Below are positions 954-58,485 of a stretch of 64,000 nucleotides of DNA, in pieces (position 1 is the stretch's first letter; the number at the start of each line of letters is the position of its first letter). Source of the stretch: Chloroflexota bacterium (lineage in GTDB: Bacteria; Chloroflexota; JAJPGV01); contig JBOGTU010000077.1 in NCBI GenBank assembly GCA_050695655.1, positions 20,397 through 84,396 of the forward strand, written 5' to 3'. Below the pieces are notes generated by a model, which was given only the letters and a program-made list of their open reading frames with translations, did no database searches and was not told where the DNA came from. Made by a program: the position numbers and the translations under genes.

Positions 954-1889
954 TTATGTACCGGCCAGCCGCCGCACAACCTGGCCAAAGGCACGCACCG
1001 CCGCTGGGTAGTCGCTGCCGCTGGGAAAGTAGGTGATGTAGGAGATGCCGTAGCGCTCGCGCTGTGCGATGAGCTTGTCCACAATCGCACTCACGCTTCC
1101 GGCTAGTGCACTCGGGGTGTCACGCCTGCTGGTGCCGCCGAATGGCTCCCGCGTTTGCCGGCCACTCGCCGGCGTCGCTCCCACGGGCCCGGGGCCGGCG
1201 CAATTGAGGCTCAACTCGATGTCGGCCAAGTGATCGCTCGCGAAGGCAGCCACCCAGCGCAAGCGGCCGTCCAGGACCTCATAGGGATCGCCGGGCGGGC
1301 TGGGCACGCTGGCAAAGCTCAGGATGTCGGCCTCGCGCGACGCCAGCTCCAGCACGCGGCGCCCGTAGCCGCCGATCATGATCGGCAGGCGCGGCTGCAC
1401 TGGTCGCGGCTGCTGCTCCAGTTCCTGAATCTGGTAGTACGTGCCCGAGAAGGTGAAGCTCGGCTGGCGCAGCAGGCCTTTGACCACGGCGACATATTCA
1501 GCGAAGCGTGCGAATCGCTCGGCGAAGGGCTCGAAAGCAATGCCCACCTGGGCCTGCTCCCGCGGCACCCAACCCGTTCCCAGCCCCAACTCCAGCCGGC
1601 CGCCGCTGAGCAGATCCACCGTGGCCGCCTCCTTGGCCAGCACGGCCGGGTGCCGCCACGCCTGGTTGATCACCAGTGTCCCCAGCCGGATGTGCGAGGT
1701 GGCCTGCGCAGCCGCCGCCAGCGCCGGCAGCGGGCTCAAAAACGGGGCAAAGTGATCCGGCGCCAGCAGCACCGCGTAGCCGATATCCTCCGCCATCCGC
1801 GCATGCTCCATCCAGGTCCTTGGATCCTGGAGTCCGAACCCCGCCCCGGCCTGAATGCCAAATCGAAACGGACGGGTCGTGCGCATCAA
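954..1889 (-). CDS. Luciferase-like monooxygenase (LLM) family oxidoreductase, probably F420-dependent
   Basis: 311 aa. Has the LLGTLV...LELGLGTGW motifs characteristic of the LLM/F420-dependent oxidoreductase family. Confidence 0.75.
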   Translation of the reverse strand: MMRTTRPFRFGIQAGAGFGLQDPRTWMEHARMAEDIGYAVLLAPDHFAPFLSPLPALAAAAQATSHIRLGTLVINQAWRHPAVLAKEAATVDLLSGGRLELGLGTGWVPREQAQVGIAFEPFAERFARFAEYVAVVKGLLRQPSFTFSGTYYQIQELEQQPRPVQPRLPIMIGGYGRRVLELASREADILSFASVPSPPGDPYEVLDGRLRWVAAFASDHLADIELSLNCAGPGPVGATPASGRQTREPFGGTSRRDTPSALAGSVSAIVDKLIAQRERYGISYITYFPSGSDYPAAVRAFGQVVRRLAGT

Positions 1890-2090
1890 GCCGGCGCAAT
1901 TCTACCTGGCCGCTGGCCGCCCGTCGAAAAGCCGCGCCGCGGCTGGAACGCCGTCCACCGCGCGGTGGCAACCTGGCGCGGTGCCCTGTTGAGCACCTGA
2001 CAGTTGTTGGCGAGACGAGGTACGCTTGCCCTGGCTGGCTGGGCGAGTGCCGGTCAGCCGGACATCGGACACAGGCGAGGAGACAAGAAC

Positions 2091-3377
2091 ATGCTGACCG
2101 CTGAAGAGAATGAGCTGTTGACGCGCACCAACGCGGGCACGCCGATGGGCGAGCTGTTCCGGCGGTTCTGGCTGCCGGCGCTGCTGCCCTCGGAGCTGCC
2201 GGCGCCGGACAGCGACCCCATTCGCTTTCGCATGCTGGGGGAGGATCTCATCGCCTTTCGCGACACCAACGGCCAGGTGGGCTTTCTGGCTAACGCCTGC
2301 CCGCACCGTGGGGCATCGCTGTTCTTTGGTCGCAACGAGGAGTGCGGCCTGCGCTGCGTGTACCACGGCTGGAAGTTCGACGTGACCGGCGCCTGCGTGG
2401 ACATGCCCAACGAGCCGGCGGAAAGCAGCTTCAAGCAGAAGATCAAGGCCACGGCCTACCCTGCGGTGGAACGGGGTGGTTTCATCTGGATTTACATGGG
2501 CCCCAGCGCCGAGCAGCCAGCCTTCCCCAACTACCAGTGGCTCAACCAGCCCGATGCCAGCTCCTACGTCGCCAGTAAGTGGCTGCAGGAATCCAACTAC
2601 TCGCAGGGTCTTGAGGGCAACATCGATTCCGCGCACGTGGGCATTCTGCACCGTACGCTGGCTCATCCCGTCTTCACCTCCGGCAACCTCCAGAGCGCGC
2701 AGGACGTGACTGTGGCCAAGGAAACGGAGTTCGGCTTCGTGTACGGCGCGCGCCGTCCCCAGCCGGACCAGAGCTACTACTGGCGCGTGACCACGTTCAC
2801 CATGCCCACCTTCACCCAGATCGCCAGCCAGTCCCGCGCGGGCGGTGGCCTGTTCGTGCTGCCACAGGACGACGAGCACAGCTGGTGGTTCACTATCAAC
2901 CCACCACGGCCGCCTGCTGGCGCTCCCGGTTCGCGGGACGCCGATTTCGGTGCGCTGCTCTCCGGCACCTCGATCGCCGATCCGGCCACCCTGGGCCTCA
3001 TTCCCGGCACCTTCAACCGCGTGCGCAACAAGAGCAACGACTACATGATCGATCGCCAGATGCAGCGGACCTTCAACTACACCGGCCTGCCCGGCAACCG
3101 CCCACAGGACCAGGCGGTCACCGAATCAATGGGCCCCATCTACGACCGCCGCAGGGAGCACCTTGGTACCAGCGACACCGCCATCATCCTCATGCGGCGC
3201 TACCTCATGCGGCTGGCACGTGACCTTGAAGGTGGCCAGCGGCCAGCGATGCTGACCTTTCCCGACCGCTTTCGTACCATTCCCATGGCCGTCAACTCGC
3301 CCGAGGGCGACTTCAACACGCTGTGGGATACGCACTACGATGCGTTTGCGCGGGAGTTGAACCTCACCCTGGGATAG
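2091..3377 (+). CDS. Rieske [2Fe-2S] non-heme iron oxygenase alpha subunit (phthalate dioxygenase/VanA/KshA-like class)
   Basis: Rieske motif CPHRG...(16 aa)...CVYHGW. Mononuclear iron motif NIDSAHVGILH. Start moved to ATG 2091 (MLTAEENELL), preceded by aggcgaggagacaag as RBS. The longer ORF from 2004 has no better support. Confidence 0.8.
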   Translation: MLTAEENELLTRTNAGTPMGELFRRFWLPALLPSELPAPDSDPIRFRMLGEDLIAFRDTNGQVGFLANACPHRGASLFFGRNEECGLRCVYHGWKFDVTGACVDMPNEPAESSFKQKIKATAYPAVERGGFIWIYMGPSAEQPAFPNYQWLNQPDASSYVASKWLQESNYSQGLEGNIDSAHVGILHRTLAHPVFTSGNLQSAQDVTVAKETEFGFVYGARRPQPDQSYYWRVTTFTMPTFTQIASQSRAGGGLFVLPQDDEHSWWFTINPPRPPAGAPGSRDADFGALLSGTSIADPATLGLIPGTFNRVRNKSNDYMIDRQMQRTFNYTGLPGNRPQDQAVTESMGPIYDRRREHLGTSDTAIILMRRYLMRLARDLEGGQRPAMLTFPDRFRTIPMAVNSPEGDFNTLWDTHYDAFARELNLTLG

Positions 3378-6378: not shown

Positions 6379-7197
6379 CTAGCCAGGAGTCGGGGGTGGA
6401 ACTGCTGGCCGCCATAGGGTGTAGGCCACCACGACAGCCAAGCCGGCCAGCGGAATTGAGAGCGCGAAGAGCGCCCAGTGCAGCTGCGACCAGCCACCCA
6501 GGGCCGCGCCGCCCACGTAGGCCAGGCACATGGCCATGTACAGCACGGCACGCCGCGGCGCGGGCTGCCGGAGAGAGGTGCGCAGCAGCGAGCCAACCGC
6601 TGGGCGGCGGCGAGGCAGGCGATCTACCAGCCAGTAGCCATACTCGACCACCCCTTCGGCCATGTCGGTGAGCATCCCGGTCACGAACGTGGTGCGCACG
6701 GTGTGCTGCCCCACCCGCCGAACCGTCGCATTCTGGACGCCCAACGCCAGCGTGGGCAAAGCCAGCAGCAGGTAAAAGCGCCAGCCGTCCGCCGGCCGCC
6801 CGGACCCGTGCAGGGCTGTTTCACCCAGCGCGAGGAAGGCCACCAGGAGCGCCGCTTCCAGCATGAACACGGCGGCACGTCGCGACCGTGTCCCGTGCCG
6901 AATGCCCTGCTCGCCGAAGGCCGCACCCAGTGCTACGCCGAGCACGAAGAGGGGGATGGGGAAGGCCCGCAGAAGCACGGCGGCATAATCCCCCTGCCCG
7001 AGATGAAAGCCCAGCCTGATGCTGTTGCCACTCTGGTGACCGCTGAAGACGTGGAACATGGTGAGGTAAACGACACTGTCCGTGGCCCCGGCAATCCAGG
7101 CCAGCCACGCGGCCAGCCAGGCCTGCCCCGCCTCACGGTCCGAGCCCGTGCCAAACGAAACAGCCATCGTGTGGCTTTCCTGCAAGCGGCGGGCCAT
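6379..7197 (-). CDS. DUF1275 (YoaK-like) family membrane protein
   Basis: Multi-TM protein with the HVFSGHQSGN motif typical of DUF1275/YoaK. Divergent from ftsH. Confidence 0.6.
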   Translation of the reverse strand: MARRLQESHTMAVSFGTGSDREAGQAWLAAWLAWIAGATDSVVYLTMFHVFSGHQSGNSIRLGFHLGQGDYAAVLLRAFPIPLFVLGVALGAAFGEQGIRHGTRSRRAAVFMLEAALLVAFLALGETALHGSGRPADGWRFYLLLALPTLALGVQNATVRRVGQHTVRTTFVTGMLTDMAEGVVEYGYWLVDRLPRRRPAVGSLLRTSLRQPAPRRAVLYMAMCLAYVGGAALGGWSQLHWALFALSIPLAGLAVVVAYTLWRPAVPPPTPG

Positions 7198-7266
7198 AGC
7201 CGCCGCTTGAAGGAGTGCCGAGCGGGCACTAGGTTTGGCACGAAGGTTGCACTACTCTTTCTTGAG

Positions 7267-9504
7267 ATGGATGTCGATCCCGCGCCCGCATCCCGCCGGG
7301 GGTGGTTCATGGATGTCATCCGGGCCGCAACGCGGTGGCCGACTAAACTGAGTCGTGGGCCTGCGCCAACACCTCAGCGCGACATGCATCCCTGGATGAG
7401 AGCACAGGATCCGGCTGGCGGCCAGCGACCCAATGCGCCCCAGCCGCCACCACGCCGCGGCTGGTGGTTCAACCTGTGGTGGGTCGTGGCATTGGGCATC
7501 CTCATCTGGAACTTCAGCAGCCTGGTGAGCAGCAAACCCACCACGAATCCGGTGCTGAATCTGCCCTACAGCGTCTTCCTCCACCAACTCAACGGCGGCA
7601 ACGTATCCTCCGTGTCGTTTCAGGGCAACGACGTGAGCGGGCGGTTGAAGCAGGTCGTCACCTACAACCCCTCCAGCAGCGCTGTTGTGGCCGGCCCCGG
7701 CGCGGCAACGAGCCCCTCGGCCTCGGCCAAGCCATCGGCCTCGGCGAGCGCCAGCCCGGCGGCGTCCGCCGCGGCGAGCTCGAGCAGCCCGAAGCCGAAC
7801 CAGCAGTCCGATCGCTTCCAGACGCTGCTGCCCAGCTTTGGCGATCCCAACCTGCTGCCCAAGCTGGAGGCGCAGAACGTGCAGATTAAGGTCAACCCGC
7901 CGTCAAACCAGTCCGCCTGGCTGCTCGTGCTGGAGAACGTGCTCCCCTGGCTGCTGCTCATCGGCCTGTTCTTCTTCATGACGCGCAAGGCGGGGGCGGC
8001 GCAGCAGGGCATTTTCAGCTTCGGCAAGAGCAAGGCACGGCGTTACCAGCACGGCGAGCAACGCATCACTTTTGACGACGTGGCCGGCGTGGCTGAGTCC
8101 AAGGCCGACCTGATGGACATCATCGATTACCTGCGTTTCCCCAAAAAGTACACCCGCTTGGGTGGCCGGGTGCCGCACGGCGTGCTGCTCGTGGGCCAGC
8201 CCGGCACCGGCAAAACGCTGCTGGCGCGAGCGACCGCGGGCGAGGCCAACGTGCCCTTCTTCAGCATCAGCGGCCCGGAGTTCGTGGAGGTGCTGGTGGG
8301 CGTGGGTGCATCACGCGTGCGTGACCTGTTCGAGACAGCCAAGAAGGAAGGGCCAGCGATTATCTTCATCGATGAGATCGATGCCATTGGCCGCCGCCGT
8401 GGCGCGGGTCACGGCCTGGGCAGCAACGAGGAGCGCGAGCAGACCCTGAACCAGATCCTGGTTGAGATGGATGGCTTCGACGCAACGCACACAGTGATTG
8501 TGCTCGCCGCGACCAACCGGGCCGACGTGCTGGACCCGGCGCTGCTGCGCCCCGGCCGGTTCGACCGGCAGGTGACGGTAGACCGGCCGGATAGGACGGG
8601 CCGCGAGGCCATCCTCCGGGTGCACGCACAGCGCGTGCCGTTGCACGCCGATGTGGACCTACGCGCCATAGCTCGCGGAACACCCGGCATGGTGGGCGCG
8701 GATCTGGCCAACCTGGTGAACGAGGCCGCGCTGCTGGCGGCGCGCAACAGCGCTGATAAGGTGTCGCAGCAATGCTTCTGGGAGGCGTTGGAAAAGATCC
8801 AGCTGGGTGCCGAGCGGCCACTGGTGCTGAGCCAGGAGGATCGCCGCATTGTGGCCTACCATGAAAGCGGGCATGCGCTGGTGGCGCTCCTCTCGCCCAA
8901 CGCCGATCCCCTGAACCGCGTCACCATATTGCCCCGCGGGCACGCCCTGGGCGTGACGCTGCAGCTGCCCATGGATGACCGCTACAACTACAGCAAGGAT
9001 TACCTGATGACGCGCATCTCCGTGGCGCTGGGTGGCCGCGTGGCGGAGGAGACCATCTTCAACCAGGTCACCACTGGCGCCGAGAACGACCTGGACATGG
9101 TGTCGCGCATCGTGAAGCAGATGGTCACCCGCTGGGGAATGAGCGAACGCGTGGGCCTGCTTGTCCAGGCCGACCATCAAGGCGAGGAGCTGGGCCTGCT
9201 GGGCAGCAAGGACACCAGCGAGTATCTGGCGAAACAGGTTGACTCGGCCATGCAGGAGATCATCAAGGAGCGACTGGCCTACACCCGCGCCATGCTCAAG
9301 GAGAATGTGGAGCGGCTGCACCAACTGGCCGCGCTGCTGCTGGAGCACGAGTCTGTGGATGCCGAGGAGATTCGTAACAGGCTGGGCCTCAACCCACCGC
9401 CGCCCGATAGCCCCCCGCCGCGCGTGGAATCCATGGAAACGCCCCCTGTTACCGCGGATGTGCCATTCGTCCCCGTTGCCTCGCATAGCAAGCAGGCTCA
9501 ATAA
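7267..9504 (+). CDS. ftsH: ATP-dependent zinc metalloprotease FtsH
   Basis: Walker A GQPGTGKT, second region of homology, and HEAGH zinc site (HESGHALV). The ORF-track N-terminus (from 6478) overlaps the opposite-strand DUF1275 gene, so the start was moved to the first ATG after it. ATG 7384 is an alternative start. The periplasmic region carries an Ala/Ser/Pro-rich insert. Confidence 0.85.
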
Positions 9505-9600
9505 GCGTCGCTATAATCCGCTGCTGAGGGCCATGTGAGCGTTGTCGATGCCGTGACGGGCCATTCATCCCCTGCCGGGGAGGATGAACCGGAGAAGACG

Positions 9601-10287
9601 ATGACCATCCTCGAGCACCTCGAGGAGCTGCGCTTCCGCCTCACCATCTCGGTCATCGCCATTTTGCTGGGCATGATTCCCGGCTGGTTTCTGTCGGACG
9701 GCGTCATCAGCCTGCTCCGGCAACCGATTGCTGAGCTGGGCCCGTTGAACGTGCTGGGCGTGACCGGCATGTTCACACTGCGGCTCAAGGTGGGGGCGAC
9801 GCTGGCCGTATGCTTCGCCTTCCCGGTGCTGTTTTCGCAGATCTGGGCCTTCGTTGCGCCCGGCCTCACTCGCCGGGAGCGCCGGCACAGCCTGCCCTTC
9901 ATCGTCCTGGGCACGGTGCTGTTCGTGGCGGGCGTGTACACCGGGTACCGCATCGTGCCACTGGCAGTGAACTTCCTCCTCAGCTTCACGGACGCCAACC
10001 TGCGGCCCATGCTGGTGGCGGATCAGTACGTCGGCTTCGTGGCCATCGTGGCGCTCATCTTCGGTGTGTCCTTTGAGCTGCCCATGGTGCTGCTTTTCCT
10101 GTGCAGCATCAACGTCATCAGCTCTGGCTGGCTGCTCAAGAAGCTGAAGTTCGCCATCATCATCATCTTCATCGTGTCCACCATCATCACGCCGGGCGCG
10201 GACCTGGTGTCGCCCGTGGTGCTGGGCGTCATTCTGAGCGCGCTGTACCTGCTGGCCATCGTTCTGGCGAAGATCATCGGGAAGTAG
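9601..10287 (+). CDS. tatC: Twin-arginine translocase subunit TatC
   Basis: MTILEHLEELRFRL... is the typical TatC N-terminus, followed by six TM helices. GGAGAAG RBS 7 nt upstream of ATG 9601. The longer ORF from 9535 is also possible. Confidence 0.85.
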   Translation: MTILEHLEELRFRLTISVIAILLGMIPGWFLSDGVISLLRQPIAELGPLNVLGVTGMFTLRLKVGATLAVCFAFPVLFSQIWAFVAPGLTRRERRHSLPFIVLGTVLFVAGVYTGYRIVPLAVNFLLSFTDANLRPMLVADQYVGFVAIVALIFGVSFELPMVLLFLCSINVISSGWLLKKLKFAIIIIFIVSTIITPGADLVSPVVLGVILSALYLLAIVLAKIIGK

Positions 10288-10296
10288 GGCCGCGGC

Positions 10297-11766
10297 ATGC
10301 CCACCGGCCTGGTGCTCGGCTGTTTGCTGCCACACCCACCGGTGCTGCTGCCGGAGGTAGGCGGCGCCATGGCGAGGCCGGTACAACCCACTGTGGACGC
10401 CATGCGCCAGGTGGGGCGCCGCATCGCCGCCCACGAGCCGGATGTAGTGATTGTGCTCAGCCCGCATGGCCCGCTGCTGGCCGACCGCATGGGCATTGGC
10501 CTCAGCCCGGCCGCCAGGGGCGACTTCGCCAGCTTCGCTGCTCCCCAGGTGCAGCTGTCCGCGGAGTGCGACGTTGCCCTGGCCGAGGCACTTCAGGCGG
10601 CCTGTGCTCGTTCGGCGCTTCCGCTCGCCGCGGTTGATGCCCTCACTGGCCCGCCCCGTGAACCGGGCGTGTACCGCCTGGACCACGGAGCGGCCGTTCC
10701 GCTGCACATTCTGCAGCCGCTGATGGGCCGCGTGCCGGTGGTGCTCCTGGGTTTTTCCGCGCTGCCACGGGCCACGCATCGCGCCTTTGGCCAGCGCATT
10801 CGGGATGTTTGCGAGGCCAGCAGCAAGCGGGTGGTGTTCGTGGCCAGCGGCGATCTCTCGCACCGCCTCACGCCGGCCGCGCCAGCCGGGTACGACCCGC
10901 GTGGCCAGGTGTTTGACGATGCTGTGCTGGCTGCCGTGTCGGCGGGCGACTGGGAGGCGCTGGCGAGCATCCCGGAGGAGCTCGTGGAGGCCGCTGGCGT
11001 GTGCGGGTATCTTTCGCTGCTCACGCTGAGCGCCGCCCTGGGCGAGGCGCCGGCCAGCAGTCACGTGCTGAGCTACCAGGGCACCTACGGGGTGGGCTAC
11101 GCCGTGGCCGAGATGGTCCCAGTAGCGCCGCGGCCCGGCGTCACCCGGGGTGCGGCCGGCACCATGGAACCCCTCAACCAAACCGAGCCCGCTGGCAGCG
11201 GCGGCTTCGTGTTCCCCGAGGGCACGCCGGGCGAGCAGATGCTGGCCCTGGTGCGCGCGACGCTCGCGGCGTACACCGCGCGGAGAGATCGGTTGCAGCT
11301 CCCGAACGCCCTGCCCGCTGCGCTCGCGGAAGCCGGGGCCTGCTTCGTCACACTGCGCTCGCGGGGCCAGCTGCGTGGCTGCGTGGGCACCATCCTCCCG
11401 GTGCAGCGCAGCCTCGCCGCCGAGATCGTCGAGAATGCGATTGGAGCCGCCTCACGGGACCCGCGCTTTCTGCCGCTGCACGCCTCCGAGCTGCGCGGGC
11501 TGAGCTGTTCGGTGGACGTGCTCACTCCTCCTGAACCCATCACCTCGATGGATGCACTGGACCCTCAGCGCTTCGGCCTGATCGTGGTGCAGGAGGAGCG
11601 CGTCGGCCTGCTGTTGCCGGAGCTGGCGGAGATCACGACAGTGGATGCGCAGTACCTCGCCTGCCTGCAGAAGGCGGGCATCACCAATCCCACCAATGTC
11701 GCCCTCTACCGCTTCGAAGCAACGCGCTACGCGGAGCCGGAGCCGGCCAAAACCTCTGCGCAGTGA
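10297..11766 (+). CDS. Two-domain protein: N-terminal class III extradiol dioxygenase-like (LigB/MEMO1 superfamily) domain fused to a C-terminal AMMECR1 domain, matching AmmeMemoRadiSam system protein B plus protein A
   Basis: N-terminal half has LPHPPVLLPEVGG, VIVLSPHGP and SGDLSHRL motifs (LigB/Memo-like). C-terminal half has ACFVTLRSRGQLRGCVGTILP...RDPRF (AMMECR1 core). 489 aa. Confidence 0.65.
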   Translation: MPTGLVLGCLLPHPPVLLPEVGGAMARPVQPTVDAMRQVGRRIAAHEPDVVIVLSPHGPLLADRMGIGLSPAARGDFASFAAPQVQLSAECDVALAEALQAACARSALPLAAVDALTGPPREPGVYRLDHGAAVPLHILQPLMGRVPVVLLGFSALPRATHRAFGQRIRDVCEASSKRVVFVASGDLSHRLTPAAPAGYDPRGQVFDDAVLAAVSAGDWEALASIPEELVEAAGVCGYLSLLTLSAALGEAPASSHVLSYQGTYGVGYAVAEMVPVAPRPGVTRGAAGTMEPLNQTEPAGSGGFVFPEGTPGEQMLALVRATLAAYTARRDRLQLPNALPAALAEAGACFVTLRSRGQLRGCVGTILPVQRSLAAEIVENAIGAASRDPRFLPLHASELRGLSCSVDVLTPPEPITSMDALDPQRFGLIVVQEERVGLLLPELAEITTVDAQYLACLQKAGITNPTNVALYRFEATRYAEPEPAKTSAQ

Positions 11767-11772
11767 AGACCT

Positions 11773-12906
11773 TCAGCTGGGGCGCGAGATGCCCACAGGC
11801 CGGGCACGCTCGTGCAGGCGGCGGCGCGCCCACAGATCCACCTCAAGGATGTCGCCCAGGGTTGGGCTGGGCAGGCTTTCATGCTCGGTGAGCAGCTCCT
11901 CCACCAGGCGCGGGATGTCCAGAAAGCCGATCTGCTCCTCCAGGAACAGCTGCACCGCCTCTTCATCCGCCGCCGCCAGCACTGTGGGGTAGGTTCCGCC
12001 GCGGGTGCCGGCCTCCTTGGCCAGGCGCAGGCAAGGGAAGCGGCCGGCATCCACCTCCTCGAACGTGAGGTCGCGCGCGGCTACCTCCAGGCGCGGACTG
12101 CTGAGCGGCAGCCGCCGCGGATAGGCAATGGCGTAGGCAATGGGCACGCGCATGTCAGGCACGCCCAGCTGCGCCTTGATGGACCCGTCCACAAACTCCA
12201 CCATGGAGTGCACGATGGACTGCGGATGAATCACGGCATCCACGCGCGAGAGGGGCAGGTCGAACAGGTGGCGCGCCTCCAGCAGCTCCAGCCCCTTGTT
12301 CATGAGCGTGGCGGAATCAATCGTGATCTTGCGGCCCATCACCCAGTTGGGGTGCTTGAGCGCTTCGGCCGGGGTCACGCCGGCGAAGCGCTCAATCGGC
12401 AGGGTGCGGAAGGGCCCGCCCGAGGCGGTGAGCAGCAGCCGTTGGACGCTCTCGGAGCTCTCGCCAGCCAGGCACTGCCAGATGGCGCTGTGCTCGCTAT
12501 CGATGGGGTACACGCGTGCGCCGGTGGCCTTGGCCTGCCGCATCACCAGGTCGCCGGCCATGATCAGCGTTTCCTTGTTGGCGAGCGCCACATCCGTGCC
12601 GTGGGCCAGCGCGGCCAGCGTGGGCTCGAACCCCACCTTGCCCGAAGTGCCTACCACCACCAGGTCCAGGTCGTCGCGCTGAGCCAGAGCCTTCAGCTCC
12701 TCGGCAGACGTAGCCACCACGGCCGGCCGAAAGCGCTGAGTCTGCTGCTCCAACAGCGCCGAGAAGCGTGACGCCGCCAGCCCCACAACCTGGAATTGGT
12801 CGGGAAACTGGCTCACCACATCCAGCGTCTGCGTGCCGATGGAGCCGGTGCTGCCAAGGATTGCCAGTCGCTTGGGCTTGCCCTCGGCCAGACCCTCATT
12901 TGTCAC
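11773..12906 (-). CDS. dxr: 1-deoxy-D-xylulose 5-phosphate reductoisomerase
   Basis: LAILGSTGSIGTQTLDVV NADPH-binding N-terminus. GTG start at 12906 chosen, because the long ORF-track extension would overlap cdsA and has no homology. Confidence 0.85.
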   Translation of the reverse strand: MTNEGLAEGKPKRLAILGSTGSIGTQTLDVVSQFPDQFQVVGLAASRFSALLEQQTQRFRPAVVATSAEELKALAQRDDLDLVVVGTSGKVGFEPTLAALAHGTDVALANKETLIMAGDLVMRQAKATGARVYPIDSEHSAIWQCLAGESSESVQRLLLTASGGPFRTLPIERFAGVTPAEALKHPNWVMGRKITIDSATLMNKGLELLEARHLFDLPLSRVDAVIHPQSIVHSMVEFVDGSIKAQLGVPDMRVPIAYAIAYPRRLPLSSPRLEVAARDLTFEEVDAGRFPCLRLAKEAGTRGGTYPTVLAAADEEAVQLFLEEQIGFLDIPRLVEELLTEHESLPSPTLGDILEVDLWARRRLHERARPVGISRPS

Positions 12907-26942: not shown

Positions 26943-26979
26943 GAGCTCAGCCCGCCTGCCGCCACAGTAAGATTGTCAG

Positions 26980-28134
26980 GTGCTCCGCCTGTACAACAGC
27001 CTCAGCAAGCGCGTGGAGCCGTTCGAAGCGGCGGGCTCGCCCATCAGCCTCTACGTCTGCGGTGTCACCCCGTACGACACCACGCACGTGGGCCATGCCT
27101 TTCTGTACATCGTGTTCGACGTGCTCAGCCGCTACCTGCGCTTCGCCGGGCACAGCGTGCGCTACGTCTCCAACATCACCGACGTGGACGACAGCATTCT
27201 TGAGCGCGCACGCCAGCGCGGGGTGGATTACCGCGACCTGGGCGATCAGCAGACGCGCCAATTCCTGCAGGATATGCAGGCCCTGAACATCAGCCCGCCG
27301 GACGTGCGGCCACGCGCCTCTGAAGAGATCCCCAAGATGGTTGAGATTGTGACCCATCTGCTGGCCGAGGGTGTGGCCTACGCGGTGGATGGCTGGGTGT
27401 ACTTTCACGCCGGCGCATACCCCGCTTACGGCCAGCTGGGGGGCTATTCGCGGCAGGAGATGATCGCCCTCGGCGCGGAGCGTGGTGGCGATCCCAACGA
27501 CCCCCGCAAACAGGACGCGCTGGATTTTGTGCTGTGGCAGCCCTCCCAGCCGGACGAGCCGCGCTGGCACGCGCCGTGGGGCACTGGCCGTCCCGGCTGG
27601 CATTTGGAGTGCAGCGCCATGTCGCTGCGCTACCTGGGCGACACGATCGACATTCACGGTGGTGGAGCGGACCTGGTGTTCCCCCACCACGAGAGCGAGA
27701 TCGCGCAGTCCGAGCTGCACACAGGGGTGCAGCCCTTCGCGCGGCTGTGGATGCACGTGGGCATGGTGCGGCTGCACGGCGAAAAGATGAGTAAATCGCT
27801 GGGCAATCTGGTGCTCGCACGGGAACTGCTGGAGCGCCACTCGGCCGCCGCGGTGCGCCTGCACTTGCTGAGCTTCCCCTATCGCGACGGCTGGGACTTC
27901 GCTGAAGCCGCCATGGCGCCGTACGATGAGCTGGCCGCGCAGGTCGCCCAGCTGCGCCGCCCGGCCGAACACCAGCTGGCCGCGGGCGATGCCTTTGTCG
28001 CCGCCCTGGATGACGACATGGATACCCCACGCGCCATCACCGTGCTGCGCCAATGTGTGGATTCCGCTCGGCAAGGCAACGCCCAAGCCGCCGACCGCCT
28101 TTCCACTTACGCGGACATTCTCGGCCTGAGCTAG
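26980..28134 (+). CDS. Class I CysS-family ligase without anticodon-binding domain; MshC-like (L-cysteine:GlcN-Ins ligase) rather than canonical cysteinyl-tRNA synthetase
   Basis: HVGH (HIGH) and KMSKS motifs. Zinc ligands (C in [11 protein letters not shown] in GWHLEC, H..E in [15 protein letters not shown]). [21 protein letters not shown] insert typical of MshC. Only 384 aa, too short to hold the C-terminal DALR/anticodon-binding domain of CysRS. Confidence 0.6.
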
Positions 28135-28408
28135 GCGCAACGCGCAACGCGCAGGCCTGGGCCTGAATCACCTGCTCCGGAACAAGCACAACATCGAAGC
28201 ACCACAGATGATTCGGCGCCGCGATTCCGTGACAAATGGGCAACGGCGCAGCCGGAATTCTCGCGGCAAATCGCGAAACGTCTTCCACGCAGACCACCTG
28301 CAGAAGCTCCATCAGCGCCCCGTCCCGGATTGTCGTCAACGCGAGGGGCAACTGCTCGATTTCAGCCAAGGTCTCCGCCTGTTCCAAGGCTACGAGTCGC
28401 CGGGCGCT

Positions 28409-49144: not shown

Positions 49145-50158
49145 TCAACCGATCAGCCGCTCGTACACCCGCAGGTAGCCGTCCACCATGTGATCCACGC
49201 TGAAGCGGCTGGCCACCCACGCTCGGCACGCGGCTCGATCGATGCGCTCGATGCCCCGCACGGCCTCCACGGCCTCGTCCACGGAGTGCACCAGCCGGCC
49301 ACTGATGCCGTCGCCCAGCACTTCGCGGGGTGAGCCGAGGTCCATCGCCACCACAGGAGTGCCGCAGGCCAGGGATTCCACCATGGTCAAGCCGAAGCGC
49401 TCCGGCCGGGTCACCAGGTGCAGGCAGGCCAGGGCATTGCCCATCAGCTCGTCGCGCTCGCGCGGACCGGCCTCACCCACGAAGCGGATCTGCCGTCCAT
49501 CCAGCCGCGGCGCGATGTCACGCTCCCAGTATTCCCGATCCTGGTGGATGCCGGCAATCAGCAACGGCAACCCCGTGCGCAACGCCACGTCGATCGCCAG
49601 GTGCACGCCCTTCTCCGGGTGAAAGCGGCCCAGATACAGCAGGTAGCCGCCGGTGGGATTGGCGCGAAAGGTGAACTCAGCGAGATCGATGCCGTTGTAC
49701 ACGGTGGCCAGGTAGTTCAGCCGCGGGTCGCGGTCCGCGTTGGAGATGGATACATAGGCGTTGTCCCAGTACTTGTGGTAGACGGCCTTGATGGCCTCGG
49801 AGGAGAAACCGTGAATGGTGGTCAACAGCGGCGTGGCAACCAGGCGCGAGTAGGTGAGCGGCAGGAAGTCCTGGTGGCTGTGCAGCAGGTCGAACTCCCC
49901 CGCGCGCTCCATCGCCTCCGAGATGTGCAGCGGCACCCACACGTTGGGATCGATTTCGGGATCCTCGGAATAAGGTCGCGGGCACACGGCGTGCAGCGTG
50001 GCCGCGGTGACGGAATCACCCGTGGCGAAGAGGGTGACGCGCTGCCCGCGTGCGACCAGCCCCTCCGTGAGGTTGTGCACCACCGTTTCCCAGGCACCAT
50101 AGCCACGCGGCGGGGTGCGCCAGGAAATGGGGCCCAACATGCCGATGTTCATCGCCAC
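49145..50158 (-). CDS. Glycosyltransferase family 4 (GT-B fold)
   Basis: EKGVHLAIDVA...LLIAG and E.FGLTMVESLACGTPVVA motifs. Confidence 0.75.
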   Translation of the reverse strand: MAMNIGMLGPISWRTPPRGYGAWETVVHNLTEGLVARGQRVTLFATGDSVTAATLHAVCPRPYSEDPEIDPNVWVPLHISEAMERAGEFDLLHSHQDFLPLTYSRLVATPLLTTIHGFSSEAIKAVYHKYWDNAYVSISNADRDPRLNYLATVYNGIDLAEFTFRANPTGGYLLYLGRFHPEKGVHLAIDVALRTGLPLLIAGIHQDREYWERDIAPRLDGRQIRFVGEAGPRERDELMGNALACLHLVTRPERFGLTMVESLACGTPVVAMDLGSPREVLGDGISGRLVHSVDEAVEAVRGIERIDRAACRAWVASRFSVDHMVDGYLRVYERLIG

Positions 50159-50183
50159 GTGCCGCCCATCGTCCCCATGCTCG

Positions 50184-51560
50184 CTACTGAGAGATGAGCC
50201 GCACGGCGCGGTCGAAGAAGAGATAGTCCCACGCCCAGTTCACCATGACCAGCAGCCGGTTGCGGAAACCCACCAGCAGCAGGATGTGCACTGTGAGCCA
50301 CAACACCCAGGCGAAGAAGCCCGTCACCTCCAGCCGGCCAATCTGAGCCACGGCGGCGTTGCGGCCGATGGTCGCCATAGTGCCGCGGTCCCGATAACGG
50401 AAGCGTTGTGCCGGCTGGCCGGCGAGGTTCCGGCGAATCATGGCCGCCGCGTGCTCCCCCTGCTGCATAGCCACGGGGGCCAGCATGGGCAGCGGGGCGC
50501 CCTTAAGCTCCAGGTAGGCCAGGTCACCAATGACGAAGACTTCGGCATGGCCGGCCAGCTGCAGCGTGGGCTGCACGGGTACGCGCCCGCCGCGCGCCAG
50601 TTCCACACCCAGCGCCTGGCCCAGGTCTGTGGCCCGCACCCCGGCATTCCACACCAGGGTGTGGCTGGCAATGCCGCTGCCATCGGACAGCGCGATGCGC
50701 TCGCCGTCGTAGCCCTTCACCAGGGTGCCCAGGCGCACTTCCACGCCCTTCTGCCGCAGCTTCTTCAGCGCGGATTTCCGGAGCCCATCGGCCATGGGCG
50801 GCAGCAGGTGCGGAGCACCCTCCACCAGCACCACCCGCACGTCTCGCGTATCCAGTGCGGGGTAATCCTGCACCAGCACCAGGCGGATGAGCTCGGCCAG
50901 CGCGCCGGCGTATTCCACGCCCGTGGGTCCGCCGCCGGCCACGACAAAGGTGAGCATCGCCGCGCGGCGCTGGGGGTCCGCTTCGGCACTCACCCGCTCG
51001 AACTGCTCCAGCAGATGGTTGCGCAGCGCCACGGCCTGGTCCAGGTTCTTCAGGCTGAGCGCGCGCTCCTCCAGGTGGGGGATGCCGAAGTAGTTGGTGG
51101 TGCTGCCGGAGGCCACCACCAGGTAGTCGTACGGCACGGGGCCGCCGTCCGTGAGCACGGTACGCTCGGCCAAGTCAAGGCCCTGCACGGCTGCCAGGCG
51201 GAAGCGCACGTTGCGCGTGCGCTTGAGGATGCGGCGGACTGGGTGCGCGATCTCCTCCGGCTCCACGGCGGCCGTGGCTACCTGGTACAACAGCGGCTGA
51301 AAGAGGTGGTAGTTGTGCTGATCCAGCAGTGTCACCTCGACCTCGGCGCCAGCCAGCGCGCGGGCCGTGCGGAGGCCGCCGAAGCCGGCACCAATCACCA
51401 CCACGCGCGGCCAGCCACCCAGGATGGGTGCGTCGGCGTCGCGCTTGCGTTCGCGGCCCACCAGGTACAGCAAGGCACCCACCAAGCCCGCGGCCATTTT
51501 TGCCGCCCACACCCGCGGCCACCGGCGCGACACGCGCATGCGCTGCATTATCCCGCGCAC
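50184..51560 (-). CDS. ndh: Type II NADH dehydrogenase (NDH-2) with C-terminal membrane anchor
   Basis: Two dinucleotide-binding motifs (VVIGAGFGG; VVAGGGPTGVE) and C-terminal hydrophobic helices. Confidence 0.8.
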   Translation of the reverse strand: MRGIMQRMRVSRRWPRVWAAKMAAGLVGALLYLVGRERKRDADAPILGGWPRVVVIGAGFGGLRTARALAGAEVEVTLLDQHNYHLFQPLLYQVATAAVEPEEIAHPVRRILKRTRNVRFRLAAVQGLDLAERTVLTDGGPVPYDYLVVASGSTTNYFGIPHLEERALSLKNLDQAVALRNHLLEQFERVSAEADPQRRAAMLTFVVAGGGPTGVEYAGALAELIRLVLVQDYPALDTRDVRVVLVEGAPHLLPPMADGLRKSALKKLRQKGVEVRLGTLVKGYDGERIALSDGSGIASHTLVWNAGVRATDLGQALGVELARGGRVPVQPTLQLAGHAEVFVIGDLAYLELKGAPLPMLAPVAMQQGEHAAAMIRRNLAGQPAQRFRYRDRGTMATIGRNAAVAQIGRLEVTGFFAWVLWLTVHILLLVGFRNRLLVMVNWAWDYLFFDRAVRLISQ

Positions 51561-51597
51561 AGCGTTTGGGCCTGCAAGTGTTGTGCCGTTGAAACGG

Positions 51598-51629
51598 TAA
51601 GGCCCGGCGCATTCCTCCGCCGGGCCTTA
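51598..51629. other. Perfect 12-bp stem / 8-nt loop hairpin in the 370-nt gap upstream of ndh
   Basis: TAAGGCCCGGCG-CATTCCTC-CGCCGGGCCTTA. Preceded by a second small hairpin, CCGTTGAAACGG. Confidence 0.35.
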
Positions 51630-51929
51630 CCGCAACTGGGTGCCGTGATGGGGGCTGGAATCCATTCCAGCTCACTCCGCTAGGAGCGCCTCACCCCGAG
51701 CATCCCTGCCTCAATCTCAACTATCGACGGCCTGTGCTCAAGCTTTACGACCAGGCGGCGATGCGAGGCCGGAGTATGCCATCCGCACGGACTCAATCCA
51801 GTTCCTTTCCCGACTGGGAGAGGCGAAGGCGAAGGCGAGGGCCTGGCCCTCGATCTCTATCCAGTCAGCAAGCTCCGGGCATTCGGTCATCAGATGGGGA
51901 GACCAGCCGCGGCGACGTGGCCGCGGCGC

Positions 51930-53246
51930 TCAACTGCCGGTGCACTGGTGGTGGTAAACCTGCGTCAGCTGCTGCACGAAGCCGCTGGGGTCGCTCATCA
52001 CCTCGGCGGCAATGCCATTCAAAAATTGATCCAGCTTGTCCACCGGGCCGGCTTTGCCGCCGGGGTAGAACCACAGCCACACGTCCGCCTGGTGGCGAAA
52101 GGCTGTGAGCTCGGTATCGTAGCAGCCCTGAACGCTGGTGATGTCCACTCCGCCCCAGTAGTCCAGCGCATGGGAGCTTTCGTGCGCAATGAGGTCGGCG
52201 ATGTCGTGCGCGTCCTCTCCAAGGCTCGTGCTGTTGATGCGGATCGTGTTGTCGTCCGGGCTGAAGTAGCCCAGTTCACCTGGCTGGCTGATCGTGGCGA
52301 CAATGACGTTGACCTGATGGTCGGCCAGGTTCTGCATGTAGGCGGTGTGGTGCGCTTGGTCGTACTGCCGCAGCAGGTCGACTGCCGGTTGCAGCACGGC
52401 CATGGCCTGCGCGGCGGGTGGTTGGCCGGGCGCCGCCTGGCCGGGGCTGAGGCCAACCTGCGCCGCCGTGGGGACCAGGCCAAACTGCTTGGCCAGGTCG
52501 CCCCCCAGAATCGGCACCACGGTGCCGGCCGCCGGCTGGCCCGGCACCCTATCGAGCCATAGCTGGAAGGCGGCACGCTGAAAGCGCTGCACAATGAACG
52601 GGCCAGCGCGCACCGGCAGCGAAGTGGGCAGGCCGTACAAGCTGATCGCATCCGCCGTGTTCCACGGGCCGGCTGTGGGGTTGGGATTGGCGAGGAACTT
52701 GGCCTTAATCGGTGCGTTGGTGAGCCAGCCGAAACGGATCTGCACTGCTTTGGCGTACTTGCCATCGGAGCCATCGTTGGCGATGGGCGGAGGAATGCCA
52801 AGCGCCTGGAGCCGCGCATCGTCGCCCTGCCGGCTGAGCTGATCGAACAGGTTGGCTAGCTCCACGCCATCGGCCTCCGGGTGCCACTGCAGCAGCGCGG
52901 TCTGGGTGGCCTGGTAAACGAAGCCGTCCGCGCCCAGGTAGCGGTTAGACGCGGGATAGCCCAGATCTGCCACGCCGCCCAGGTGGGCGAAGGCGGAGTA
53001 GAGCTTTATGGTTTGGCCGCGTCCATCCAGCCCCGTGTCCTGAATCTCAAAGCCCCGGCCGCCGCCCCCTCCGGCCTGGCTGTAGAACCAGCCCGAAGCC
53101 ACTTGGTAATCCACCGGCGCCGCCTGAACGCGCGGCGGGGCCAGCCACAGCAGAGTGGCGCCGATCAGCACCGCGACCAGCATTTTGCTCACGCATCGCC
53201 CGGCCGCGGTTGGAAAATGCCCCACAACGAACAGTAAACGCTGCAC
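51930..53246 (-). CDS. Secreted protein with a C-terminal HExxH (IAHESSHALDY) putative zinc-metallopeptidase-like domain
   Basis: Signal-peptide-like MLVAVLIGATLLWLAPPRVQAAP near the N-terminus. HESSH motif. Gly-rich segment. Confidence 0.5.
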   Translation of the reverse strand: MQRLLFVVGHFPTAAGRCVSKMLVAVLIGATLLWLAPPRVQAAPVDYQVASGWFYSQAGGGGGRGFEIQDTGLDGRGQTIKLYSAFAHLGGVADLGYPASNRYLGADGFVYQATQTALLQWHPEADGVELANLFDQLSRQGDDARLQALGIPPPIANDGSDGKYAKAVQIRFGWLTNAPIKAKFLANPNPTAGPWNTADAISLYGLPTSLPVRAGPFIVQRFQRAAFQLWLDRVPGQPAAGTVVPILGGDLAKQFGLVPTAAQVGLSPGQAAPGQPPAAQAMAVLQPAVDLLRQYDQAHHTAYMQNLADHQVNVIVATISQPGELGYFSPDDNTIRINSTSLGEDAHDIADLIAHESSHALDYWGGVDITSVQGCYDTELTAFRHQADVWLWFYPGGKAGPVDKLDQFLNGIAAEVMSDPSGFVQQLTQVYHHQCTGS

Positions 53247-53351
53247 GGTGCATAGAAGTTATCGCGAGGGTCACCGGGGGCAGGAAATCACCACCAGCAG
53301 GAACAGCATCGTGCCCGCTGGCGATGCTAGTGCTCAGACAGTCTGGGGCTT

Positions 53352-54377: not shown

Positions 54378-54560
54378 GATGACGACCCCTCTCTCGCTGA
54401 GCTGCCGAGCTGCCCGAATCTTAGCGCCTGGCCCTACCCGCGCGCGCTAGTCACGCCGCGGCGCTAGGAGCCCTACCTTCAAGCATCGGCCAGAACACGC
54501 ATTTGGTCCACCGCCGGCTGCGCGCAGTGCCTGTTTCCTGCTTGATGTAGAGTCTCGCTC

Positions 54561-56702: not shown

Positions 56703-56928
56703 TTCATCAGCACCTCGAAACGCTCTGCGTCCGTAGTGTCGCGCGCGCTGCGGCGGCTCGTCGCCCCAACGCAGACGGGGCAGGTACTCGCGGTATTCCT
56801 GATCTGTCAAGCGCAGAATCGCCCGAAAGCTGAGAACCTGCTTCCCACGCATGTGGTCACGCTACTCCCCTAACTGATTCTCACGGGGATAATAACTGTT
56901 TACTTATGAAATAACGCCAAAATACCCC

Positions 56929-56957
56929 GTTGACTGTAATAGTTGCGCGCCATACAG
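56929..56957 (+). promoter_or_regulatory. Putative sigma-70-type promoter for folC: TTGACT, 17 bp spacer, TACAGT
   Basis: In the AT-rich gap. The -10 ends 13 nt before the folC ATG, implying a very short leader. Confidence 0.4.
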
Positions 56958-56970
56958 TGGCTGCCACAAC

Positions 56971-58371: not shown

Positions 58372-58485
58372 CCGCATCCGCTCGCCCAGTGCCAGGCACG
58401 AGGACAACGCATCGGCGCATCTCGGCGTAGGAGTACCCTCACAGCTGATGCGCGTGCGTTTCGGGCTGCTCGCGGTCAAGGCGCC

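What the first reader, a model, noticed from the sequence alone, without database searches (positions are those of the whole stretch)
10297..11766. Fusion of LigB/Memo-like and AMMECR1 domains (AmmeMemoRadiSam proteins B+A) with no radical SAM partner in the locus
The AmmeMemoRadiSam system is normally three genes: AMMECR1, Memo-like, and a radical SAM enzyme. Here the first two are fused into one 489-aa ORF. It sits between tatC and dxr with no radical SAM gene nearby. The biochemical function of this system is unknown, so a fused, orphaned version is a useful handle, perhaps a radical-SAM-independent variant.
Basis: partly seen in the sequence, partly recalled or inferred. Interest (0 to 1): 0.55.

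Follow-up and report, generated by a model that had tools for sequence, protein, structure and literature searches.

The report
Fused LigB–AMMECR1 gene lacking radical-SAM neighbour
This is a real, functional gene fusing a metal-binding LigB/Memo-type domain to an AMMECR1 domain; the fusion is common and long known, but this soil Chloroflexota lineage lacks the usual adjacent radical-SAM partner and has lost one canonical metal-binding residue.

Summary
Window 10297-11766 (+) is a 489-aa ORF with a LigB-type N-terminal domain and an AMMECR1 C-terminal domain. It lies between tatC and a convergent dxr. No radical SAM gene occurs anywhere in the 64 kb.

The fusion is not new: Balaji and Aravind described it in 2007, thousands of database proteins share the architecture, and NCBI and JGI already name them AmmeMemoRadiSam protein A or A/B. 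In most relatives (51 of 68 decidable loci) the fused gene abuts a TIGR04337 radical SAM gene, forming a two-gene cassette.

The partner-less state is also not unique. It characterises a large group of soil Chloroflexota and Acidobacteriota (Pyrinomonadaceae), where the gene sits among housekeeping genes.

Two things are specific to the window's subclade. It is always linked to tatC. It also has Val in place of the Glu that aligns with the iron-ligand Glu of extradiol dioxygenases, leaving a MEMO1-like His/His/Cys set.

Both domains are under purifying selection. Whether the radical SAM enzyme is encoded elsewhere in the genome could not be tested. Verdict: a modest new variant of a known family, biochemical function still unknown.

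The parts
10297..11766 (+). Whole fused gene, 489 aa plus stop codon
   Evidence: ORF list; Pfam and NCBIfam; 83-84% identical orthologues in L001 and L007; dN/dS 0.25 against L007
10297..11121 (+). N-terminal LigB-type (class III extradiol dioxygenase / Memo superfamily) domain, aa 1-275
   Evidence: PF02900 134 bits; best PDB match TK2203 5HEE; dN/dS 0.16; confident AF2 model
10333..10335 (+). His13 codon (PHPP motif), predicted metal ligand 1
   Evidence: Aligns with the published ligand H13 of 3VSH_B; conserved in 88 of 89 fused proteins, the remaining one being N-terminally truncated
10465..10467 (+). His57 codon (SPH motif), predicted metal ligand 2
   Evidence: Aligns with the published ligand H62 of 3VSH_B; invariant
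10852..10863 (+). Asp186-Leu-Ser-His189 (ASGDLSHRL motif), second-shell or catalytic residues
   Evidence: Nearly invariant across the family; aligns with MEMO1 D189 and H192
10999..11004 (+). Val235-Cys236: Val replaces the family's Glu (the canonical carboxylate ligand position); the Cys is invariant
   Evidence: The family's Glu aligns with Fe-ligand E251 of 3VSH_B and with the GEGG Glu of DHPAO 8IQ8. Val in 26 of 26 closest relatives; Glu in 210 of 214 others. Cys236 aligns with MEMO1 C244
11122..11229 (+). Inter-domain linker, aa 276-311: disordered, variable in length, evolving neutrally
   Evidence: pLDDT below 50 for residues 279-301; dN/dS 0.94; length-variable alignment columns
11230..11763 (+). 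C-terminal AMMECR1 domain, aa 312-489 (AmmeMemoRadiSam protein A type)
   Evidence: PF01871 134.7 bits; TIGR04335 125.4 bits against a cutoff of 99; Foldseek PH0010 TM 0.78, rmsd 2.0 A; dN/dS 0.23
11380..11382 (+). Cys362 codon in the LRGCVG motif, the predicted catalytic Cys of AMMECR1
   Evidence: RGChG motif defined by Balaji and Aravind; LRGC[IVM]G present in 237 of 240 retrieved fused proteins
11458..11466 (+). Asp388-Pro-Arg390 (DPRF), the second AMMECR1 active-site motif (DxRa)
   Evidence: Motif described in PMC2034487; conserved in all groups
9535..10287 (+). tatC, immediately upstream (9-nt gap), probably co-transcribed
   Evidence: PF00902 188 bits. tatC is directly upstream in the window and in L001, L002, L007, L010, L090, L091 and L092 of the V235 subclade, and in the more distant L012 and L043
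11773..12906 (-). dxr, convergent; its stop codon lies 6 nt from the fusion's stop codon. A neighbour, not part of the system
   Evidence: DXP reductoisomerase domains; probable GTG start at 12906

Best explanation
The gene encodes a functional two-domain enzyme of the LigB-AMMECR1 fused family, in which one polypeptide carries both the 'protein B' and 'protein A' roles of the AmmeMemoRadiSam system. The N-terminal domain is a mononuclear-metal (Fe or Cu) site of the LigB/Memo superfamily. The C-terminal AMMECR1 domain carries the conserved cleft cysteine (Cys362) with Asp388 and Arg390. Because the two domains are fused across several bacterial phyla, I infer that they act together on one still unknown, probably housekeeping, substrate, with the metal centre supplying redox or Lewis-acid chemistry and the AMMECR1 cysteine acting as a nucleophile or radical carrier. 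In most lineages a PFL-activase-like radical SAM enzyme (TIGR04337) is encoded next door and presumably activates or modifies this module or its substrate. In the lineage of this window the gene has been uncoupled from that partner and is expressed with ftsH-tatC. Its metal site has also changed from His/His/Glu(+Cys) to a MEMO1-like His/His/Cys. Shown: architecture, conservation, purifying selection, absence of the partner in 64 kb, group-wide uncoupling, and the Glu-to-Val change. Inferred: metal binding, cooperation of the two domains, housekeeping role, and co-transcription with tatC. Unknown: substrate and reaction, and whether a radical SAM partner exists elsewhere in the genome. I put presence elsewhere and true loss at roughly equal odds.
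For: Domain calls. The same architecture in every full-length listed homologue. Adjacent genes in L003, L005 and L006 verified as TIGR04337 (263-308 bits, cutoff 220), with glycyl-radical activases as the next-best families. 51 of 68 decidable loci have the partner within 700 nt, and 16 of 68 have none within at least 1.5 kb on both sides. The partner-less loci group together in the tree: bootstrap 100 for the window's subclade, 99 for the acidobacterial group, and 66 for all partner-less sequences separated from all linked ones. Near-invariant motifs PHPP, SPH, LDHG, ASGDLSHRL, AGECG, LRGCIG and DPRF are kept in linked and unlinked groups alike. dN/dS is 0.16 and 0.23 for the domains and 0.94 for the linker. 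The Glu-to-Val change maps to the ligand position and is restricted to the subclade. MEMO1 binds Fe or Cu through H49, H81 and C244 (PMC11081632). Both domains are modelled confidently, and the fold matches are TK2203, class III dioxygenases and PH0010. The neighbourhoods are housekeeping: ftsH-tatC-[gene]-dxr-cdsA-uppS-frr here, and dnaA-dnaN-recF-gyrB-[gene] in Acidobacteriota.
Against: No biochemical activity is known for any AMMECR1, bacterial Memo or TIGR04337 protein, so the mechanism is inference only. There is a one-residue ambiguity: sequence alignment pairs Cys236 with MEMO1 C244, whereas structural alignments in the literature equate C244 with the dioxygenase Glu, which aligns with position 235. 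pTM is 0.64, so the relative orientation of the domains is uncertain. Only 64 kb of the genome was seen. The single-clade origin of the partner-less state has only 66% bootstrap support in a neighbour-joining tree.
Confidence: 0.6

Rival explanations
1. The system is complete but dispersed: a TIGR04337 radical SAM gene is encoded elsewhere in the same genome and still works with this fused protein, so only the gene order differs from the usual cassette.
For: All catalytic motifs are identical to those of radical-SAM-linked relatives apart from E235V. One linked locus already has the partner 2.3 kb away rather than adjacent (L025), and the partner sits upstream in one group and downstream in another, so the arrangement is flexible. 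Only 64 kb of the genome was examined.
Against: No partner in 10 kb upstream or 52 kb downstream. None in any of 31 loci of the partner-less group, nine of the 16 decidable partner-less loci having at least 5 kb of flank on both sides, whereas adjacency is almost universal elsewhere (52 of 53 decidable). In my own knowledge, eukaryotes keep AMMECR1 and MEMO1 without any TIGR04337 orthologue, so a partner-free state is viable.
Confidence: 0.45
2. It is an ordinary aromatic ring-cleaving extradiol dioxygenase of the LigB family that happens to carry an extra AMMECR1 domain, and it serves catabolism of catechol-type compounds.
For: Strong Pfam LigB match. The best structural neighbours include aminophenol, homoprotocatechuate and DOPA dioxygenases. 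A Rieske/LigXa-type oxygenase is encoded about 7 kb upstream.
Against: The carboxylate ligand of the 2-His-1-carboxylate triad is replaced by Val. Every dioxygenase equivalog scores 16-40 bits against cutoffs of 286-549. No meta-cleavage pathway genes are adjacent; the neighbours are tatC, dxr, cdsA, uppS and frr. The same fused protein is paired with a radical SAM enzyme in lineages that I know to be strictly anaerobic (Dehalococcoidia, Eggerthella), where an O2-dependent dioxygenase makes no sense.
Confidence: 0.05
3. It is a decaying remnant of a former three-component system, left non-functional after loss of the radical SAM partner.
For: The Glu ligand is lost. One partner-less relative (L009) has degenerate LigB motifs.
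Against: dN/dS is 0.16-0.23 in both domains while the linker is 0.94. 26 of 26 subclade members keep every other motif, and Val235 itself is invariant. The reading frame is intact. Synteny with tatC is conserved down to about 50% identity.
Confidence: 0.03
4. The conserved pairing with tatC reflects a functional link to the Tat export pathway, for example maturation of a cofactor or protein that is exported folded.
For: tatC is directly upstream, with a gap of 9-170 nt, in all 10 Chloroflexota loci of the partner-less group where the upstream region is visible, down to 41% identity.
Against: The acidobacterial members are not next to tatC, nor are the radical-SAM-linked relatives. The protein has no twin-arginine signal at its N terminus (sequence). 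The two tatC-linked groups are not recovered as one clade (bootstrap 36), so inherited synteny within Chloroflexota is the simpler reading.
Confidence: 0.07

Closest known systems
LigB-AMMECR1 fused proteins of two-gene AmmeMemoRadiSam cassettes (for example Eggerthella sinensis P0049 and Dehalococcoidia P0043), named 'AmmeMemoRadiSam system protein A' by NCBI
   Same: Same two-domain architecture, 37-42% identity over 97% of the length, and the same motifs: PHPP, SPH, LDHG, ASGDLSHRL, xCG, LRGCxG, DPRF.
   Different: Those genes abut or overlap a TIGR04337 radical SAM gene and carry Glu at position 235. The window's protein has no such neighbour, has Val235, and is linked to tatC.
Three-gene AmmeMemoRadiSam system (TIGR04335 + TIGR04336 + TIGR04337)
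   Same: The C-terminal domain passes TIGR04335. The N-terminal domain belongs to the same superfamily as protein B and marginally passes TIGR04336.
   Different: Proteins A and B are fused. The B part is LigB-type, not canonical Memo-type (Pfam Memo 18.1 bits, below the 27-bit threshold). The radical SAM component is absent from the 64-kb window.
Human MEMO1 (PDB 3BCZ, 7KQ8) together with AMMECR1
   Same: MEMO1 binds Fe or Cu through His/His/Cys, with Cys in place of the dioxygenase Glu and no dioxygenase activity detected (PMC11081632). The window's domain has the analogous His13, His57 and Cys236, plus Asp186 and His189 aligning with D189 and H192. In my own knowledge, the eukaryotic pair also works without a TIGR04337-type enzyme.
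   Different: Only 12-14% identity and TM 0.54-0.59 to MEMO1. The eukaryotic proteins are separate polypeptides. The resemblance of the metal site appears to be a secondary change (E235V) within a LigB-type lineage.
TK2203 of Thermococcus kodakarensis (PDB 5HEE), a putative extradiol dioxygenase
   Same: Best sequence and fold match of the N-terminal domain (E 2e-25 with the family profile; TM 0.84).
   Different: It is a stand-alone 262-aa protein. Where the family has E-C-G, TK2203 has P-D-S. Its function is also unestablished in the literature I could reach.
Archaeal AMMECR1 homologues PH0010 (1VAJ) and MM0484 (1ZQ7)
   Same: The C-terminal domain matches at 29-31% identity, with TM 0.78 and rmsd 2.0 A to PH0010, and has the same RGCxG and DxRF motifs.
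   Different: Those are single-domain proteins. Their function is unknown.

Membership tests
AmmeMemoRadiSam system | Protein A: TIGR04335 at or above the trusted cutoff of 99 bits | tested here: met
   125.4 bits, aa 314-477, profile positions 2-174 of 175
AmmeMemoRadiSam system | Protein B: TIGR04336 at or above the cutoff of 26 bits, over the full length | tested here: inconclusive
   28.9 bits (30.9 for the domain alone), but only profile positions 122-250 of 270. The N-terminal domains of radical-SAM-linked fused relatives score the same way, 24-40 bits
AmmeMemoRadiSam system | Radical SAM component TIGR04337 encoded in the same gene neighbourhood | tested here: not met
   None in 64 kb: six-frame HMM with --max gives a best score of 5.9 bits; the CxxxCxxC scan and Pfam on all main ORFs are also negative. 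Also absent from L001, L002, L007 and L090-L092
AmmeMemoRadiSam system | TIGR04337 present anywhere in the same genome | not testable with these tools
   Only the window is available. The genome scan did not return the source genome, and the partner-profile search gives no genome linkage
Class III (LigB-type) extradiol dioxygenase | LigB fold and Pfam PF02900 | tested here: met
   134.2 bits over the full profile; TM 0.72-0.84 to solved members
Class III (LigB-type) extradiol dioxygenase | 2-His-1-carboxylate iron triad | tested here: not met
   His13 and His57 align with the ligand histidines, but the position aligned with Fe-ligand E251 of 3VSH_B is Val235
Class III (LigB-type) extradiol dioxygenase | Passes a curated equivalog model for a known dioxygenase | tested here: not met
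   HpaD 37.6 against 316; MhpB 34.2 against 549; class III subfamily model 25 against 290
MEMO1 / Memo family | Pfam PF01875 at or above the gathering threshold of 27 bits | tested here: not met
   18.1 bits, partial; NF001987 MEMO1 family 15.5 bits against 295
MEMO1 / Memo family | His/His/Cys metal site (H49, H81, C244) | tested here: inconclusive
   His13, His57 and Cys236 are present and invariant, and Cys236 aligns with C244, but the hhalign score is weak (E 0.035) and no coordinates were available to confirm the geometry
AMMECR1 family | PF01871 domain with RGChG and DxRa motifs and the two-lobed RAGNYA fold | tested here: met
   134.7 bits; LRGC362VG and D388PRF present; TM 0.78 and rmsd 2.0 A to PH0010; motifs as defined in PMC2034487

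The most novel reading that the evidence does not exclude
The partner-less group, and the Val235 subclade in particular, may be a truly radical-SAM-independent, oxygen-compatible version of the AMMECR1/Memo pathway, the bacterial counterpart of the eukaryotic AMMECR1 + MEMO1 pair. On this reading the LigB/Memo-type metal centre, here remodelled to His/His/Cys, took over the activating step that the PFL-activase-like radical SAM enzyme performs in anaerobes. This would parallel other anaerobic/aerobic enzyme pairs such as HemN and HemF. If so, a single soluble bacterial polypeptide would be a tractable model for the unknown biochemistry of two human proteins with disease or cancer links.
Probability: 0.25. 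Interest if true: 0.65.

Novelty: new variant of a known kind. Interest (0 to 1): 0.35.

Why it matters
AMMECR1 (X-linked developmental disorder) and MEMO1 (cell motility, iron homeostasis, cancer) are conserved from archaea to humans, and neither has a known reaction. The fusion says that the two activities belong together, but that has been known since 2007. This locus adds a well-delimited group of aerobic soil bacteria in which the fused module sits among housekeeping genes without the radical SAM partner, as in eukaryotes. Within that group, one subclade has a metal site that has shifted to the MEMO1 pattern. If genome-wide searches confirm that the partner is truly absent, these proteins would be simpler models for biochemical work than the oxygen-sensitive three-component systems. 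If the partner is merely unlinked, the locus is an ordinary member of a known family.

Tried and rejected
1. Source genome. I scanned the species-representative genomes for it and its relatives. Only three loci came back, and the source genome was not among them.

2. Unlinked partner. I searched the protein database with a profile of Chloroflexota TIGR04337 enzymes to find one. More than 8,000 hits came back, the top 120 all Dehalococcoidia/Chloroflexi-type, with no way to link any of them to the window's genome. This was uninformative.

3. Alternative partner. I considered the 400-421-aa Radical_SAM gene next to obg, about 8 kb from the fusion in L002 and L090-L092. It is not TIGR04337 (best match MoaA, 51 bits), is absent from the window, and was rejected.

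4. The only CxxxCxxC-bearing frame in the window (1501-2247, minus strand) has no Pfam hit and overlaps real genes. Rejected as non-coding.

5. Model geometry. I looked for the AF2 coordinates to measure distances in the metal site and the orientation of the domains. They are not exposed.

6. Literature searches for AmmeMemoRadiSam, AMMECR1 + radical SAM, AMMECR1 + MEMO1, AMMECR1 since 2019, and TK2203 found no experimental function.

7. The sigma-70 promoter and terminator scan around the gene found nothing in the intergenic gaps and is of little value in this GC-rich, non-model organism.

8. Pseudogene and catabolic-dioxygenase readings were rejected on the selection analysis, the motifs and the gene context.
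Full report
**Observation.** The window holds an uninterrupted 489-aa ORF at 10297-11766 on the plus strand. Pfam finds a full-length LigB domain (PF02900, aa 9-270, 134.2 bits) and a full-length AMMECR1 domain (PF01871, aa 317-477, 134.7 bits). Memo (PF01875) scores only 18.1 bits, below its 27-bit threshold. NCBIfam places the C-terminal half in TIGR04335 (AmmeMemoRadiSam protein A), at 125.4 bits against a cutoff of 99. The N-terminal half passes TIGR04336 (protein B) only marginally, at 28.9 bits against 26 and over profile positions 122-250 of 270. The gene follows tatC (9535-10287) after a 9-nt gap. Its stop codon lies 6 nt from the stop codon of a convergent dxr.

**No radical SAM gene in the window.** Three independent tests agree.
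- Only one CxxxCxxC motif occurs in any open frame of at least 100 aa, and that frame has no Pfam match.
- An HMM built from three verified partner enzymes, run without filters on all six frames, scores 463-682 bits on the true partners and at most 5.9 bits (E 0.71) in the window.
- Pfam scans of about 40 main ORFs show no PF04055 domain.

The window content is housekeeping: fabD, nusB, ftsH, tatC, dxr, cdsA, uppS, frr, tsf, rpsB, a 2-oxoacid dehydrogenase complex, ddl, uvrD, lexA, the dnaK operon and acs. It also encodes O2-dependent enzymes, namely a Rieske/LigXa oxygenase and a luciferase-like monooxygenase. This suggests an aerobic heterotroph. A 100% identical partial protein and 83-84% identical orthologues come from 'Chloroflexota bacterium' MAGs, one of which carries an SMAG isolate label that I take to mean a soil MAG catalogue.

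**The fusion is common and already described.** All 119 full-length proteins among the best 120 homologues have the same PF02900+PF01871 architecture. They come from Chloroflexota, Bacillota, Eggerthellaceae and others, and NCBI or JGI already name them 'AmmeMemoRadiSam system protein A' or 'A/B'. A second search, seeded from a soil relative, found 7,991 of 8,000 scored candidates below E 1e-40, and all 120 listed have the fused architecture. Balaji and Aravind (2007, PMC2034487) had already reported the persistent neighbourhood of AMMECR1 with a radical SAM enzyme and a ring-opening dioxygenase homologue. They also reported gene fusions with the latter, and proposed the RGChG cysteine as catalytic. 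I found no paper that assigns a reaction to AMMECR1, to bacterial Memo or to the radical SAM partner.

**What the fused gene normally looks like.** In Eggerthella sinensis the fused gene overlaps a 280-aa radical SAM gene downstream. In two other Chloroflexota lineages a 341-347-aa radical SAM gene lies immediately upstream. All three pass TIGR04337 (263-308 bits, cutoff 220), and their next-best families are glycyl-radical-enzyme activases. No separate Memo gene is present in these cassettes, so the LigB-type domain takes the 'protein B' role. I scored 89 full-length fused loci with my own HMMs:
- 51 have the partner within 700 nt.
- 1 has it 2.3 kb away.
- 16 have none, with at least 1.5 kb of flank on both sides (9 of them with at least 5 kb).
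- 21 are too short to decide.

**The partner-less state belongs to a whole group.** In a neighbour-joining tree, all partner-less loci but one fall together. This group comprises the window's subclade, two other tatC-linked Chloroflexota loci, a divergent Dehalococcoidia sequence, and a large 52-59% GC set. NCBI names identify relatives of that large set as Pyrinomonadaceae, Acidobacteriota. None of the 31 members has an adjacent partner. In the other two groups, 52 of 53 decidable loci do. Bootstrap support is as follows:

| Grouping | Support (of 100) |
|---|---|
| Window's subclade | 100 |
| Acidobacterial set | 99 |
| All partner-less sequences separated from all linked ones | 66 |
| The two tatC-linked Chloroflexota groups as one clade | 36 |

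One to three uncoupling events are therefore possible. In Acidobacteriota the gene lies in the origin region (gidA-parAB-dnaA-dnaN-recF-gyrB-[gene]), next to a divergent FAD-dependent oxidoreductase. In the window's subclade tatC is directly upstream in every locus examined: window, L001, L002, L007, L010 and L090-L092.

**Nature of the N-terminal domain.** Its closest solved relative by sequence and by fold is TK2203 (5HEE; E 2e-25 with the family profile; TM 0.84). Aminophenol, homoprotocatechuate and DOPA extradiol dioxygenases follow at TM 0.72-0.82. MEMO1 is clearly more distant, at TM 0.54-0.59 and 12-14% identity. N-terminal domains from all groups of the fused family, including those linked to a radical SAM gene, score alike: 24-40 bits on TIGR04336, and far below the cutoff of every dioxygenase equivalog. 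The domain is therefore a distinct branch of the LigB/Memo superfamily. It is neither a canonical Memo nor a catabolic dioxygenase.

**The metal site and the subclade-specific change.** Across the 89 fused proteins, these motifs are almost invariant, with or without an adjacent partner: PH13PP, SPH57, LDH130G, ASGD186LSH189RL, AG-E235-C236-G, LRGC362IG and D388PRF. The family profile was aligned to aminophenol dioxygenase 3VSG/3VSH chain B. There His13 and His57 pair with the published iron ligands H13 and H62, and the family's Glu pairs with ligand E251. It also pairs with the GEGG Glu of DHPAO (ligand numbering from PMC11081632). In the window this position is Val. Val is found in all 26 closest relatives (at least 49% identity) and one partial sequence, whereas 210 of 214 other fused proteins, including 120 of 120 Acidobacteriota, have Glu. 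The adjacent Cys236 is invariant and aligns with MEMO1 C244, which together with H49 and H81 binds Fe or Cu in MEMO1. The window's subclade has thus lost the canonical carboxylate and is left with a MEMO1-like His/His/Cys set. That these residues bind metal is an inference. Coordinates of the model were not available, and a one-residue register ambiguity remains between position 235 and position 236 as the true equivalent of MEMO1 C244.

**The gene is functional.** Against the 84% identical orthologue, dN/dS is 0.16 for the LigB domain and 0.23 for the AMMECR1 domain, but 0.94 for the 36-residue linker. The AlphaFold model is confident for both domains (mean pLDDT 82.6), and residues 279-301 are disordered. 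The C-terminal domain superposes on PH0010 with TM 0.78 and rmsd 2.0 A.

**Interpretation.** The best-supported reading is a functional fused 'B+A' module of the AmmeMemoRadiSam family. Its metal domain and its AMMECR1 cysteine cleft probably act on one unknown, probably housekeeping, substrate. In this lineage it has been uncoupled from the radical SAM gene and is expressed with ftsH-tatC. I could not test whether the partner is encoded elsewhere or has been lost, and I rate the two as about equally likely. A catabolic dioxygenase role is contradicted by the missing Glu ligand, the equivalog scores, the gene context, and the occurrence of the same protein with a radical SAM enzyme in lineages I know to be strict anaerobes. 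A pseudogene is contradicted by the selection analysis. A functional tie to Tat export is possible but weakly supported.

**Novelty and score.** The fusion and its genomic association are already known, and the protein is already named by annotation pipelines. What appears new is threefold: the delimitation of a partner-less group in soil Chloroflexota and Acidobacteriota, the Glu235-to-Val change that defines the window's subclade, and the constant tatC linkage. This makes it a new variant of a known kind, of moderate interest (0.35). It would become more interesting if genome-wide searches show that the radical SAM enzyme is truly absent. These single-polypeptide proteins would then be the closest bacterial analogue of the eukaryotic AMMECR1/MEMO1 pair.

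Noticed in passing
L002:1636-2838(-), L090:104-1333(-), L091:103-1332(-), L092:788-2053(-): A conserved 400-421-aa Radical_SAM gene next to obg lies about 8 kb upstream of the tatC-fusion pair in part of the Val235 subclade. It is not TIGR04337 (best NCBIfam match MoaA, 51 bits, far below cutoff) and has no counterpart in the window.
   Followed up: partly
L047:6497-7753(-), L093:8492-9721(-) and 12 other acidobacterial loci: A divergent FAD_binding_3-type oxidoreductase of about 410-420 aa is conserved immediately upstream of the fused gene in the Pyrinomonadaceae-like group, beside gyrB-recF-dnaN-dnaA. It could be a functional partner or simply origin-region synteny.
   Followed up: partly
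L009:10019-11350(+): A fused homologue from a Dehalococcoidia MAG (locus 71% GC) has degenerate LigB motifs (AAEDAV for AGECG, SADGSHA for SGDLSHR) but intact AMMECR1 motifs. Its metal domain may be inactive.
   Followed up: no
window 6478-9504 (+) and 6379-7197 (-): The ftsH reading frame stays open about 900 nt upstream of its likely start and overlaps a DUF1275 gene on the other strand. FtsH also carries a Ser/Ala/Pro-rich insert (..[32 protein letters not shown]..) in its extracytoplasmic part.
   Followed up: no
window 26950-28167(-), 50103-51680(+), 51933-53258(-), 56884-59199(-): Four long ORFs picked by codon-position GC have no Pfam hit. Three of them have unusually high first-position GC (0.81-0.84), so they may be low-complexity proteins or wrongly chosen frames.
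   Followed up: no
window 53355-54446 (-): A full-length fliG (flagellar motor switch) stands apparently alone, with no other flagellar gene identified nearby in this Chloroflexota window.
   Followed up: no
window 11764-11775: The stop codons of the fused gene (11764-11766) and of the convergent dxr (11773-11775) are only 6 nt apart, which leaves no room for an intergenic terminator.
   Followed up: no
window 957-1901(-) and 2001-3374(+): A luciferase-like monooxygenase and a Rieske/LigXa-type oxygenase are divergently arranged about 7-9 kb upstream. The same pair is conserved in the 83% identical relative L001. They point to an aerobic lifestyle.
   Followed up: partly
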